This document shows positions 2,252 to 17,973 of a stretch of 64,000 bases of DNA, piece after piece. The first letter of the stretch is position 1. Every line of letters begins with the position of its first letter. A model generated the notes under the pieces. It saw only the letters and a list, made by a program, of their open reading frames with translations, made no database searches and was not told the DNA's origin. The DNA lies in NCBI GenBank assembly GCA_945918795.1, contig CAMEIT010000002.1:42-64041 (forward strand), in the 5' to 3' direction. The position numbers and the translations under genes are program-made. Source of the stretch: an uncultured Clostridia bacterium (lineage in GTDB: Bacteria; Bacillota; Clostridia; HGM11327).

Positions 2252-3274
2252 ATGAATGAAAAGGTGAGATTTGCGATAGTCGGATGCGGAAGAATAGCTC
2301 CGTTTCATGCGGACGGTATTGCCAAGGCTCCGTCGGCAGAGCTTTGTGCTGTATGCGATGTTGTGGAAGAAAAAGCACGCGATTTTGCACTCAACAGAGG
2401 CTTGCAAAAATGGTATACGGATGCGGACGATATGTTCAGAAATGAAAAGATCGATGTATGCTGTGTATGCGTACCGAGCGGATTGCATCATGAAATAGCA
2501 ATAAAAGCGGCAGGGTACGGAATAAACGTTCTGTGCGAAAAACCGCTTGACATTAATTCGGACAATATGCTTGAAATGATAAAGGCGTGCGAGGATAACA
2601 ATGTAAAGCTCGGAGCGATATTCCAAAGACGCACTTATCAGGCGGCGTGCGAAGTAAAAAAGGCGATCGATAACGGCTCGTTCGGAAAAATCACGATAGG
2701 AAGCGCACATCTTTATTTTTACCGCGATCAGGATTATTACGACAGCGGCGAATGGCGCGGAACGTGGGCTCTTGACGGAGGCGGCGCGCTTATGAATCAG
2801 GGCGTACACGGAGTGGATATGATAACATGGCTTATGGGCGGAGTGAAAAGCTTAAGAGCCGATTGCAAGAGACTTCTTTGGAATACGGAAGTGGAGGATA
2901 CGGCGGTTATAACTCTTACATATAAAAACGGAGCTGTGGGAGTTATCGAGTGCACGACATCGGTTTATCCGGGACTTGAAACTGTGTTCACGGTAGGCGG
3001 CCAAAACGGATCGGTTCTTTTCGGCGATAATATGATATATTCGTGGAAATTCAAAAACGATACTCCTTCTCAGCCGGAAATCGAGGACGCTTTTGCCGGA
3101 ACAAACTGCTCATATGACGATTGCTCGCCTCACGCGGTTCAGATAGAGGATATGGCAAGGGCTGTTATTGAAAACAGAGAACCTATGATTACGGGCAAAG
3201 AAGCAATGCAAAGCGTCAAGGTCATACTTGCAATATATGAGTCCGCAAGAACGGGCAGGGAAGTCTTTTTATAA
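2252..3274 (+). CDS. Gfo/Idh/MocA family NAD(P)-dependent oxidoreductase
   Basis: Rossmann-fold N-terminus VRFAIVGCGRIAPFHADGI plus the EKPL motif typical of Gfo/Idh/MocA. Start was chosen at the ATG giving MNEKVRF; the GTG at 2216 lies too close to the SD. Confidence 0.7.
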   Translation: MNEKVRFAIVGCGRIAPFHADGIAKAPSAELCAVCDVVEEKARDFALNRGLQKWYTDADDMFRNEKIDVCCVCVPSGLHHEIAIKAAGYGINVLCEKPLDINSDNMLEMIKACEDNNVKLGAIFQRRTYQAACEVKKAIDNGSFGKITIGSAHLYFYRDQDYYDSGEWRGTWALDGGGALMNQGVHGVDMITWLMGGVKSLRADCKRLLWNTEVEDTAVITLTYKNGAVGVIECTTSVYPGLETVFTVGGQNGSVLFGDNMIYSWKFKNDTPSQPEIEDAFAGTNCSYDDCSPHAVQIEDMARAVIENREPMITGKEAMQSVKVILAIYESARTGREVFL

Positions 3275-16091: not shown

Positions 16092-16254
16092 AGTATTCCT
16101 CCGAAAACAATATTACAAGCGCTTGTTCTGAATATATTATATCAAATGAAATTGATTAATACAATGACTGCTCTGTTAAATTGCAGTTTAATTATTAAAC
16201 GAATAGTTTAATTGAAGGGGAACAGGCTGCTCATATGCAGTCCGATGCTTTGGC

Positions 16255-16299
16255 GTAATGTTACACAAGGAAAACTTAAATCAAAAATACGCAAACACC
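16255..16299 (+). repeat. Direct repeat copy A (~46 bp), upstream of the transposase gene
   Basis: GTAATGTTACACAAGGAAAACTTAAATCAAAAATACGCAAACACC is nearly identical to 17928-17973 (1 substitution, 1 indel). Confidence 0.8.
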
Positions 16300-16406
16300 G
16301 AAACTTTTTTATGCTGTCTTTTACGGAGAATTTGCAATCACAAAAATATCGGCAGAGAGACTGTTTTCCTCTGCCGATTTGTGTTATAATGATATGGATG
16401 ATGAAA

Positions 16407-16925
16407 ATGGATAAAGGAAAAGAATTGCCGCAAAGGAAGCATCCTCGTCTTGTCAATTATGATTATGGTTCTGCCGGTGCATATTTTATAACGATATGTA
16501 CGCAAAACAGAAGGTGTGTTTTATCTCGTATCGTAGGGCGGGGGCTTGCTCCCGCCGAAGCAAGAGGTATGGAATACACCTCATTTGGAAAGATTGCAGA
16601 GCAACAGCTGTTATTACTTGAAGAACGATATGAATATTTATCGGTTGACAAATATGTAATTATGCCAAACCACATCCATGTTGTTTTGATTTTAGAGAGC
16701 GAAGCGGCGGGAGCAAGCCCCCGCCCTACAATCACAGACATTGTTTGTGCATATAAATCGTTGACAACGAGAGAATGTAAGAATAACGGATTTGACGGAA
16801 AATTGTTTCAAACTTCATTTTATGAGCATATAATCCGAGGCAGAGAGGATTATGAAGAAATCGTGAAATACATTTACGAAAACCCGATTTGTTGGTACTA
16901 TGACGAATTATATACAGAAGGATAG
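16407..16925 (+). CDS. tnpA: IS200/IS605-family (HuH Y1) transposase TnpA-like protein
   Basis: HuH motif MPNHIHVVL, a conserved Tyr-containing C-terminus, and an N-terminus typical of Y1 transposases (AGAYFITICTQNRRCVL). The upstream extension to 16212 lacks an RBS. Confidence 0.7.
   Translation: MDKGKELPQRKHPRLVNYDYGSAGAYFITICTQNRRCVLSRIVGRGLAPAEARGMEYTSFGKIAEQQLLLLEERYEYLSVDKYVIMPNHIHVVLILESEAAGASPRPTITDIVCAYKSLTTRECKNNGFDGKLFQTSFYEHIIRGREDYEEIVKYIYENPICWYYDELYTEG
16533..16729 (+). repeat. Perfect 25-bp GC-rich inverted repeat (arms 16533-16557 and 16705-16729) embedded in the transposase coding sequence
   Basis: GTAGGGCGGGGGCTTGCTCCCGCCG is the exact reverse complement of CGGCGGGAGCAAGCCCCCGCCCTAC. 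The 147-bp spacer encodes the HuH motif. Confidence 0.9.
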
Positions 16926-16995
16926 GAGCATGGGCTTTGCTTGAAACCGGCAAAACAGAGAGATAAATAAGAATTTGGAGAGGTGGGAATGGGAT

Positions 16996-17760
16996 ATGAG
17001 TGAATGGTTTTCAGTTGAAGAAATTGATTCCCAAACATTTGCAATTAACGAATATAAACACTGGGAAGAAACACACTGCTATCTGTTATGTGGTCAGGTA
17101 AGTGCAGTCCTAATTGATACCGGGTTGGGCGTTTCCAATATTAGAAAAATTGTAGACAGCTTAACGGAGTTGCCAGTTATGACGATTACAACTCATATTC
17201 ACTGGGATCACATCGGCGGGCATAAGTATTTTGATAATATCGCTGTACATGAAAATGAAAAGGATTGGCTATCAGTCAAGTTTCCTATACCGCTGCAAGT
17301 TGTTAAGAATAATCTGACGAAGGTTCCTTGTGATTTTCCGGCAGAGTTTGATATTGATGCTTATCAGATTTTTCAAGGTGAGCCGCAAAGGATTCTGCAC
17401 GATGGCGATTGGTTGGATTTAGGCGGACGGGAAATTCAGGTTATCCATACTCCGGGACATTCTCCCGGACACTGTTGTTTTTACGAGCCGGGACGAGAAT
17501 ACCTGTATTCCGGTGATCTGATTTACAAGGGATGCCTTTATGCCTTTTACCCAACCACTGATCCACAGCTTTTCTATCAATCTGTAAAACGGGTGCAGAA
17601 ATATAAAATAGCAAAGGTTCTACCCGGTCATCATGATGTGGACATTCCTGTATCGTTGATAAACGAAATTGAAGCAGGATTTGCACAATTGGAGAGAAAT
17701 GGACAGCTCAAACAAGAAAGCGGACTGTTTGAGTTCGGAAATTTCCAAATTCAAATCTGA
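16996..17760 (+). CDS. MBL-fold metallo-hydrolase
   Basis: THIHWDHIGG (HxHxDH) metal-binding motif. ~254 aa. Confidence 0.7.
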   Translation: MSEWFSVEEIDSQTFAINEYKHWEETHCYLLCGQVSAVLIDTGLGVSNIRKIVDSLTELPVMTITTHIHWDHIGGHKYFDNIAVHENEKDWLSVKFPIPLQVVKNNLTKVPCDFPAEFDIDAYQIFQGEPQRILHDGDWLDLGGREIQVIHTPGHSPGHCCFYEPGREYLYSGDLIYKGCLYAFYPTTDPQLFYQSVKRVQKYKIAKVLPGHHDVDIPVSLINEIEAGFAQLERNGQLKQESGLFEFGNFQIQI

Positions 17761-17927
17761 ATAACAAATTCCGCTTTATCAAGCAGAAAGCCCCGGCATA
17801 TAATGAATAATCTGCCGGGGTTCTATTTGTTTACTGCGGAGCAAAAAAACTCACCTATTTATGAGGACGAATCGTTTGATGATTTCCTAGACAAGAACAT
17901 CACGCTTTCACATTCGGGATTTTTTGT

Positions 17928-17973
17928 TGTAATGTTACACAAGGAAAACTTAAATCAAAAATATGCAAAACAC
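17928..17973 (+). repeat. Direct repeat copy B (~46 bp), downstream of the MBL hydrolase gene
   Basis: See copy A at 16255-16299. Confidence 0.8.

What the first reader, a model, noticed from the sequence alone, without database searches (positions are those of the whole stretch)
16533..16729. Perfect 25-bp GC-rich inverted repeat inside the IS200/IS605-type transposase gene, bracketing the HuH motif
The two arms (72% GC in a ~40% GC gene) are exact reverse complements 147 bp apart and both are translated in frame. A perfect long IR inside a coding region is unexpected. It could be a regulatory RNA hairpin, a recombination hotspot, or the footprint of an internal insertion that preserved the frame.
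Basis: seen in the sequence. Interest (0 to 1): 0.55.

Follow-up and report, generated by a model that had tools for sequence, protein, structure and literature searches.

The report
Two REP hairpins inside RAYT gene
The 25-bp inverted repeat is real: it is two oppositely oriented, in-frame copies of a small palindromic repeat element (a GTAG-tagged REP) sitting inside the gene of the REP-associated transposase-like enzyme, an arrangement already reported for one branch of this enzyme family.

Summary
Arms 16533-16557 and 16705-16729 are exact reverse complements, 147 nt apart, in frame, and bracket the HuH codons. The arms are 80% GC, not 72%.

The gene is not a typical IS200/IS605 transposase. 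It is a REP-associated tyrosine transposase (RAYT/TnpA_REP) relative.

Each arm is a REP: 5' GTAG, an 8-bp GC-rich stem, a 4-nt loop.

- 62 of 80 relatives carry such a pair at or next to the gene, with 54 distinct arm sequences in 42 genes.
- The local hairpin covaries. When the two arms differ, the changes are compensated within each arm (17 kept, 1 broken), not across arms.
- The long inverted repeat is therefore a by-product of two copies of one REP.
- Synonymous codons differ in 6% of comparisons inside the arms and 54% outside.
- The same 24-mer is dispersed in metagenomes, 111 of 120 places outside RAYT genes, and flanks a relative as a classical REPtron.
- Relatives show tandem duplications, insertions and an IS insertion at the arms.

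Quentin et al. 2018 described in-frame REP insertions in subclass 2.4 tnpA_REP genes. This is a new member of a known kind. What the intragenic REPs do is not known.

The parts
16407..16925 (+). RAYT / TnpA_REP-like gene (172 aa; start taken at the ATG of MDKGKE...)
   Evidence: ORF. NCBIfam REP_Tyr_transpos scores 59.5 bits against a cut-off of 80. A family profile hits 4ER8 TnpA_REP at E 2e-13 and IS200-type TnpA at about 0.008. The AF2 model has pLDDT 88 and its best PDB fold match is 4ER8. There are 7615 homologues.
16533..16557 (+). Arm 1: REP copy with GTAG on the + strand. GTAG 16533-16536, stem 16537-16544 / 16549-16556 (one G.T), loop CTTG 16545-16548, G 16557. Encodes V43-A50.
   Evidence: GTAG is in codon phase 0 in all 37 relatives examined. 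The peptide lies at the tip of a beta-hairpin, loop 44-53 of the model.
16558..16704 (+). Spacer (147 nt, 35% GC). Encodes helix A, two strands and the HuH motif. It is core protein, not inserted DNA.
   Evidence: Aligns with relatives that lack REPs and with 4ER8. Secondary structure.
16671..16679 (+). HuH codons CAC ATC CAT (H89 I90 H91)
   Evidence: Sequence. Invariant in alignments A1 and A2.
16705..16729 (-). Arm 2: the same REP with GTAG on the - strand (16729-16726). Read on the + strand it encodes A101-T108 (AGASPRPT), in the loop between the HuH strand and helix C.
   Evidence: E. coli TnpA_REP has a 6-residue gap at this loop.
16869..16871 (+). Catalytic tyrosine codon (Y155 of YIYENP, the class 2 'Y...NP' motif)
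   Evidence: Sequence. Y155 and N159 are invariant in A1 and A2, and P160 in A1. Motif definition from Quentin et al. 2018.

Best explanation
The inverted repeat is two copies of one GTAG-tagged REP. Each copy is 5'-GTAG, an 8-bp GC-rich stem, a 4-nt loop and a trailing G. The copies are embedded in frame and in opposite orientation in two surface loops of a RAYT/TnpA_REP-like gene, one on each side of the HuH strand.

The perfect 25-bp arm-to-arm complementarity follows automatically from both arms being the same REP.

Shown here: the REP identity of the arms, the local hairpin as the conserved unit, DNA-level constraint or homogenisation of the arms, dispersed copies of the same REP elsewhere, and instability at the arms in relatives.

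Inferred from what is established for E. coli, S. maltophilia and Marinomonas TnpA_REP (4ER8; Corneloup et al. 2021): on single-stranded DNA each arm folds into its own hairpin. The hairpin with its GTAG foot is the substrate that this kind of enzyme binds and cuts. The gene would then carry its own cognate sites in cis, in place of the flanking REPs of a classical REPtron. That would keep enzyme and REP type linked and make the arms sites of duplication and insertion. Whether the sites also regulate the gene is open.
For: - REP anatomy: GTAG plus hairpin on opposite strands. It matches the subclass 2.4 REPs listed by Quentin et al., e.g. GTAGGGGCGGGTTCTAAACCCGCCC.
- Recurrence: 62 of 80 relatives from GTDB species genomes have a GT[AG]GG... 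arm and its reverse complement 158-357 nt apart at or next to the gene; in a few the pair lies partly outside it. There are 54 distinct arm sequences in 42 genes.
- Local hairpin covariation: 100% and 98.6% of cells paired. 5 of 8 and 6 of 8 pairs change on both sides. Scores are 0.71 and 0.85 against 0.19 and 0.23 in shuffles, with 0 of 500 shuffles reaching the observed value.
- Differences between the two arms of one gene: 17 stem pairs changed on both sides and still paired, 1 changed on one side and still paired, 1 broken.
- Codon choice: synonymous-codon differences among 11 genes of the VGRGLAPA clade are 6.2% in the arms and 53.7% outside. The arms are identical at about 50% protein identity.
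- Arm 2 is read in two different phases in different clades (..PT or ..PLQ), so the constraint is not on the peptide.
- Dispersal: the exact 24-mer occurs in 120 or more metagenome stretches. Only 9 are in a RAYT context. The rest are solitary or close head-to-head doublets, mostly upstream of start codons.
- In L148 the same REP flanks a relative that has no internal REPs, with about 10 copies.
- Same-type copies occur in the flanks of 10 relatives.
- The protein belongs to the TnpA_REP branch, and the arm peptides map to loops.
- Literature: in-frame REP insertions in tnpA_REP genes of subclass 2.4.
Against: - No enzyme activity was tested, so cognate recognition is inferred.
- The window has no other GTAG hairpin in 64 kb, so this genome may have no REP population for the enzyme to act on.
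- NCBIfam and Pfam scores are below their curated cut-offs.
- A single-sequence DNA fold of one arm (-7.5 kcal/mol) is not better than shuffles (z -1.1 to -1.7). Support for the hairpin comes from covariation only.
- 18 of 80 relatives lack the pair, so the pair is not essential to the protein family.
- Strong conservation of the arms could come from repeated gene conversion from dispersed REPs rather than from selection on the gene.
Confidence: 0.75

Rival explanations
1. Tolerated selfish passengers. REPs landed in two permissive loops and are kept uniform only by gene conversion or re-insertion from the genomic REP pool. They have no role for the RAYT gene. This is essentially the reading of Quentin et al. 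2018.
For: The arm peptides lie in loops away from the core. 18 of 80 relatives do without the pair. REP-less relatives have loops of the same length with degenerate sequence. REPs of the same type are dispersed elsewhere. The paper states that such insertions may have little impact on activity.
Against: Position and codon phase of arm 1 are fixed across deep divergence. The arms are retained in the window although no other copy exists in 64 kb to serve as a conversion donor. 28 of 42 loci have no REP within 1 kb outside the gene. Synonymous differences are 6% against 54%.
Confidence: 0.25
2. The functional unit is the long-range 25-bp stem, in mRNA or single-stranded DNA. It closes a 147-nt loop and throttles expression, for example through RNase III cleavage or a translation block.
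For: The predicted fold of 16520-16745 has all 25 arm pairs formed, at -89 kcal/mol and z -7.7. The arms are perfect or nearly perfect complements in most relatives.
Against: In at least 12 loci the arms differ by changes compensated within each arm, which leaves 2-6 arm-to-arm mismatches. Identical REPs occur alone elsewhere. On the mRNA, arm 2 carries an A.C mismatch where arm 1 has G.U, which fits identity defined on the GTAG strand of DNA.
Confidence: 0.1
3. Invertible or excisable segment. Recombination between the arms flips or removes the HuH-coding piece as an on/off switch.
For: In the window the antisense frame across the unit is open, reading VGRGLAPA...AGASPRPT. The arms are 25 bp and perfect.
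Against: The same antisense frame has 1-6 stops in 35 of 37 relatives. No inverted or arm-to-arm deleted form appeared among the homologues inspected. No exhaustive DNA search was made.
Confidence: 0.03
4. Chance, a protein-level constraint, or an assembly artefact.
For: None beyond the fact that both arms are translated.
Against: The chance expectation is about 2e-10. The arms are identical in many independent assemblies. Synonymous sites are frozen. Arm 2 is read in two phases.
Confidence: 0.01

Closest known systems
REP insertions inside tnpA_REP genes of TnpA_Y1 subclass 2.4 (Bertels group 4), Quentin et al. 2018, BMC Genomics 19:475
   Same: In-frame GTAG-type REPs inside the RAYT gene. 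The loop between the HuH strand (beta3) and helix C is variable. Short repeated sequences occur there. The HuH motif is NH[IFV]H. REPs have a GGG/CCC or GGC/GCC stem base.
   Different: [quoted passage not shown] Here a second REP lies upstream of HuH in the beta-hairpin loop. The two form an inverted pair at fixed positions in most Clostridia relatives. Most loci have no flanking REP. The figures of the paper could not be seen.
Classical REPtron (E. coli tnpA_REP flanked by REP/BIME; structure 4ER8)
   Same: Same enzyme branch and fold. GTAG-footed hairpins in inverted orientation are associated with the gene. L148 shows the same REP as the window arms in this classical layout.
   Different: In the window the REPs are inside the coding sequence and translated, not flanking. 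The E. coli protein lacks 6 residues at the arm 2 loop.
REPIN (two inverted REPs forming a mobile doublet; Bertels and Rainey 2011)
   Same: Two copies of one REP in inverted orientation. The dispersed copies of this REP often occur as close +/- doublets, about 50 nt start to start.
   Different: The spacer here is 147 nt of essential coding sequence, not a short non-coding spacer. No copy of the arm-spacer-arm unit was found elsewhere.
IS200/IS605 insertion sequences
   Same: HuH/Y1 fold. Subterminal hairpins serve as enzyme substrates.
   Different: The tyrosine motif is Y...NP, not Y...Q. Pfam Y1_Tnp is below its cut-off. There is a single copy in the window. Homology between loci stops at the gene. 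There are no end hairpins and no tnpB. The family is rare on plasmids and phages.
REPs inserted in other protein-coding genes (Di Nocera et al. 2013, BMC Genomics 14:522)
   Same: GTAG-tagged palindromes tolerated in frame within genes.
   Different: Here the host gene is the REP's own presumed enzyme, and the insertion sites are conserved across the family.

Membership tests
RAYT / TnpA_REP (TnpA_Y1 class 2) | HuH motif plus catalytic tyrosine in a Y...NP motif | tested here: met
   H89-I-H91 and Y155-IYENP. H89, H91, Y155 and N159 are invariant in A1 and A2, and P160 in A1. Motif definition.
RAYT / TnpA_REP (TnpA_Y1 class 2) | Closer in sequence and fold to TnpA_REP than to IS200/IS605 TnpA | tested here: met
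   The family profile hits 4ER8 at E 2e-13, against 0.007-0.009 for IS200-type chains. 4ER8 is the top Foldseek hit.
RAYT / TnpA_REP (TnpA_Y1 class 2) | Curated model score above cut-off (NCBIfam NF047646 REP_Tyr_transpos) | tested here: not met
   59.5 bits against a cut-off of 80. The model is an equivalog, so a distant subclass is expected to fall short.
RAYT / TnpA_REP (TnpA_Y1 class 2) | GT[AG]G-footed REP hairpins within 1 kb of the gene | tested here: met
   Two are present, both inside the gene. None lies outside the gene in the window.
RAYT / TnpA_REP (TnpA_Y1 class 2) | Binds and cleaves its cognate single-stranded REP | not testable with these tools
   Needs biochemistry of the kind in Corneloup et al. 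2021.
TnpA_Y1 subclass 2.4 (Quentin) / RAYT group 4 (Bertels) | Motifs NH[IFV]H, WQ and YIxNNP | tested here: inconclusive
   NHIH is met. The window has FQ where most relatives have WQ. The window has YIYENP, and relatives have YIxxNP. Motifs alone do not separate subclasses 2.4, 2.6 and 2.7.
TnpA_Y1 subclass 2.4 (Quentin) / RAYT group 4 (Bertels) | REPs inserted in frame within the tnpA_REP gene; variable loop between beta3 and helix C | tested here: met
   The feature is described.
TnpA_Y1 subclass 2.4 (Quentin) / RAYT group 4 (Bertels) | Phylogenetic placement with reference members (e.g. ACS97067.1, AFY32102, ABY33858.1) | not tested
   Reference sequences could not be fetched by accession. 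The afdb50 library was unavailable.
REP (repetitive extragenic palindrome) | 20-40 nt imperfect palindrome with a 5' GTAG | tested here: met
REP (repetitive extragenic palindrome) | Many dispersed copies in the same genome, in intergenic DNA | tested here: not met
   The window has only the two intragenic copies in 64 kb. The same 24-mer is dispersed in other genomes and metagenomes. The whole source genome was not available.
IS200/IS605 insertion sequence | Pfam Y1_Tnp above cut-off, Y...Q motif, terminal hairpins, multiple copies | tested here: not met
   Y1_Tnp scores 18.8 against 23. The motif is Y...NP. Homology ends at the gene. There is one copy in the window.

The most novel reading that the evidence does not exclude
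The intragenic pair is not a tolerated passenger. It is the conserved cis element of an 'inside-out REPtron'. In a large, mainly Clostridia clade the RAYT carries its only obligatory REP substrates inside its own reading frame, at two fixed loops bracketing HuH. The hairpin part would be swapped or converted in concert on both arms as enzyme specificity changes. The arms would then act as master copies for the dispersed REPs, as an autoregulatory binding site, or both.
Probability: 0.3. Interest if true: 0.65.

Novelty: new member of a known kind. Interest (0 to 1): 0.4.

Why it matters
How REPs are made, kept uniform and tied to their RAYT is still unresolved.

A RAYT that carries both copies of its REP inside its own reading frame, with no flanking REPs and, in this window, no other copy nearby, is a compact system for two tests. 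One is whether the enzyme acts on these hairpins. The other is whether they regulate the gene or seed new copies.

For annotation, GC-rich peptide pairs such as VGRGLAPA/AGASPRPT or VGAIHESP/RAIRESPLQ mark translated REPs, not protein motifs. The arms are also places where assemblies, reading frames and insertion sequences break the gene.

Tried and rejected
1. Invertible segment with both orientations coding. The open antisense frame in the window is not conserved: 35 of 37 relatives have 1-6 stops.
2. One 197-bp MITE or REPIN insertion. The spacer is the conserved core and aligns with REP-less relatives and with 4ER8.
3. Protein-level cause. Rejected by codon analysis and by the two reading phases of arm 2.
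4. Long-range stem as the selected unit. Rejected by compensation within each arm.
5. Single-sequence DNA folding of one arm is not significant against shuffles, so it was not used as evidence.
6. The consensus promoter/terminator scan does not list the upstream hairpin or the TGtTATAAT.
7. The stop-to-stop ORF test suggested that many dispersed REPs lie in long open frames. Inspection showed most sit just upstream of real start codons.
8. The afdb50 fold library was unavailable.
9. Cluster look-ups gave no organism names.
10. Literature searches found no paper describing the paired arrangement. The general phenomenon is in Quentin et al. 2018.

Full report
**Observation**

The window has GTAGGGCGGGGGCTTGCTCCCGCCG at 16533-16557 and its exact reverse complement at 16705-16729, 147 nt apart. 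No other copy exists in the 64 kb with up to 3 mismatches. None of 100 shuffles gave two matches. The analytic expectation for such a repeat in the 519-nt gene is about 2e-10.

The gene is 39.7% GC. Both arms are read in frame in the ORF 16407-16925, as VGRGLAPA and AGASPRPT. The HuH codons at 16671-16679 lie between them.

**What the gene is**

- Pfam Y1_Tnp scores 18.8 bits against a cut-off of 23. NCBIfam REP_Tyr_transpos scores 59.5 against 80.
- A profile of 35 diverse relatives hits E. coli TnpA_REP (4ER8) at E 2e-13 and IS200-type transposases only at about 0.008.
- An AlphaFold model (pLDDT 88) has 4ER8 as its best solved fold match.
- The tyrosine motif is YIYENP. This is the Y...NP signature of class 2 (TnpA_REP), not the Y...Q of IS200.
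- Homology between loci stops at the gene and its neighbours differ.
- The family is nearly absent from plasmids (5 of 72,556 records) and phages (1 record).

The gene is therefore a RAYT relative, not an IS200/IS605 transposase in the strict sense.

**What the arms are**

Each arm reads 5'-GTAG, an 8-bp stem (GGCGGGGG/CTCCCGCC, with one G.T), a CTTG loop and a G. This is the anatomy of a GTAG-tagged REP (Di Nocera et al. 2013; Quentin et al. 2018). Arm 1 has GTAG on the + strand and arm 2 on the - strand.

I fetched 80 loci encoding relatives of 34-73% identity from one genome per species.

- 62 have a GT[AG]GG arm and its reverse complement 158-357 nt apart at or next to the gene. In a few the pair lies partly outside the gene.
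- In the 42 genes analysed in detail the pair brackets HuH.
- Those 42 genes hold 54 distinct arm sequences. The translated pairs include VGEGLCPLP/GGDGTPPLQ, VGAIHESP/RAIRESPLQ, VGDGVLDVP/GTSRTPSPT and VGADAHIGP/GSMRASSPT.
- GTAG of arm 1 is always in codon phase 0. Arm 2 is read in one of two phases.

**Local hairpin or long stem**

The local hairpin covaries. In two length classes, 100% and 98.6% of cells pair. 5 of 8 and 6 of 8 pairs change on both sides. The covariation scores are 0.71 and 0.85, against 0.19 and 0.23 in shuffles, and 0 of 500 shuffles reach the observed value.

When arm 1 and the reverse complement of arm 2 of the same gene differ, the outcome is as follows:

| Stem pairs compared between the two arms | Count |
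|---|---|
| Changed on both sides, still paired within the arm | 17 |
| Changed on one side, still paired | 1 |
| Broken | 1 |

Examples are in L036, L038, L039, L040, L042, L053, L073 and L075. These changes break arm-to-arm pairing. The preserved unit is therefore each small hairpin. The 25-bp inverted repeat is the automatic result of two copies of one REP in opposite orientation. The long stem would still form on paper (-89 kcal/mol, z -7.7).

**DNA-level constraint**

Among 11 genes of the VGRGLAPA clade, pairs of sequences that share an amino acid use different codons in 6.2% of comparisons inside the arms and 53.7% outside. The arms are identical in genes whose proteins are only about 50% identical. 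L008 carries a change compensated four ways, in both stems of both arms. This needs either selection on the DNA or repeated homogenisation.

**The same REP elsewhere**

Only 9 are in a RAYT context. The others are solitary copies or close +/- doublets, mostly just upstream of start codons.
- In L148, a relative without internal REPs is flanked by about ten copies of this same REP. That is a classical REPtron.
- Ten relatives have same-type copies within 10 kb.
- GT[AG]G hairpins occur at about 0.21 per kb in the distant flanks. Shuffles of the window gave about 0.8 GTAG hairpins per 64 kb.
- 28 of 42 loci have none within 1 kb outside the gene. The window has none at all outside the gene.

**Position in the protein**

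Arm 1 encodes the tip of a beta-hairpin (loop 44-53). Arm 2 encodes the loop between the HuH strand and helix C (97-108). E. coli TnpA_REP has a 6-residue gap at this loop. Relatives without REPs have loops of the same length with degenerate sequence.

**Instability at the arms**

- Close homologues carry 1-4 tandem copies of arm 2 plus adjacent sequence, in 39- and 78-nt units. By my reading of the sequence the junction has GAATG microhomology.
- Some have duplications of arm 1.
- One has a 50-nt insertion inside the loop of an extra arm 1 copy.
- Cluster members include frameshifts and chimeric junctions inside the arms.
- In strains whose upstream DNA is identical to the window, an IS with a DDE transposase is inserted inside arm 1.

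**What is known**

Quentin et al. [quoted passage not shown] They place them generally between HuH and Y, with short repeats in the variable loop between beta3 and helix C. Their subclass 2.4 REPs have the same build as the arms here.

The present case fits that description. The text I could read does not mention the second REP upstream of HuH, the fixed inverted pair, or the lack of flanking REPs. I could not see the figures, and I did not place the protein in a tree with reference members.

**Mechanism**

Shown: the arms are REPs, the local hairpin is conserved, there is a constraint on the DNA, and copies are dispersed.

Inferred from solved and assayed TnpA_REP enzymes (4ER8; Corneloup et al. 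2021): on single-stranded DNA each arm folds and is bound through the hairpin and its GTAG foot. The gene would thus hold its own substrates in cis.

Whether this serves linkage of enzyme and REP type, seeding of copies or autoregulation is open. The main rival is that the arms are tolerated passengers kept uniform by conversion.

**Rejected readings**

The rejected readings are an invertible coding segment, a single 197-bp insertion, a protein-level cause, and chance or artefact.

**Verdict**

This is a real feature that is largely explained, and a new member of a known kind. Interest is moderate, because the paired inside-the-gene layout offers a clean test bed for how RAYTs and REPs interact.

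Noticed in passing
window 16244-16295 and 17918-17969: A 52-nt direct repeat (90% identical; the 35-nt core GTAATGTTACACAAGGAAAACTTAAATCAAAAATA is exact and occurs only twice in the window) flanks the RAYT gene together with the MBL-fold hydrolase gene at 16975-17760.
   Followed up: partly
window 16350-16390: A hairpin CGGCAGAG...CTCTGCCG (16350-16376) is followed by TGtTATAAT (16382-16390) just upstream of the RAYT start codon. It is kept, with compensatory stem changes, in L083, L085, L001 and L003 although their neighbouring genes differ. The consensus promoter/terminator scan does not list it.
   Followed up: partly
L207 617-640 and L208; L206 100-165: In strains whose upstream DNA is identical to the window, the RAYT gene is interrupted inside arm 1, after GTAGGGCGGGGGCTTGCTCC. 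The inserted element starts CATAGATGGGAACTTAAGAG and encodes a DDE_Tnp_1 transposase. L206 shows the opposite end of a similar element abutting a half REP upstream of an intact RAYT gene. A possible 11-bp target duplication is GGGCTTGCTCC.
   Followed up: partly
L148 2510-3823: A RAYT relative without internal REPs (2547-3077) has one upstream and about nine downstream copies of exactly the window's REP, at 79/89-nt spacing. This is a classical REPtron built from the same REP.
   Followed up: partly
L001 2950-3200; L002 4878-5013; L043 1382-1707: Arrays occur at the arms in relatives. L001 has four copies of arm 2 in 39/78-nt units. L002 has an extra arm 1 copy with a 50-nt insertion in its loop. 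L043 has repeated GSPLPIK and DTFGRGDP units.
   Followed up: partly
L003 17100-17400: An intergenic cluster holds at least five different GTAG-REP types side by side in an Oscillospiraceae genome. L041 and L051 each carry two RAYT paralogues with different arm sequences at the two loops.
   Followed up: no
proteins P0271-P0298 (clusters of P0001 and P0017): Many cluster members are fragments, or are frameshifted or chimeric forms that break inside or next to the arms, for example P0272 and P0274. This suggests that short-read assemblies and gene calls often fail at these repeats.
   Followed up: no
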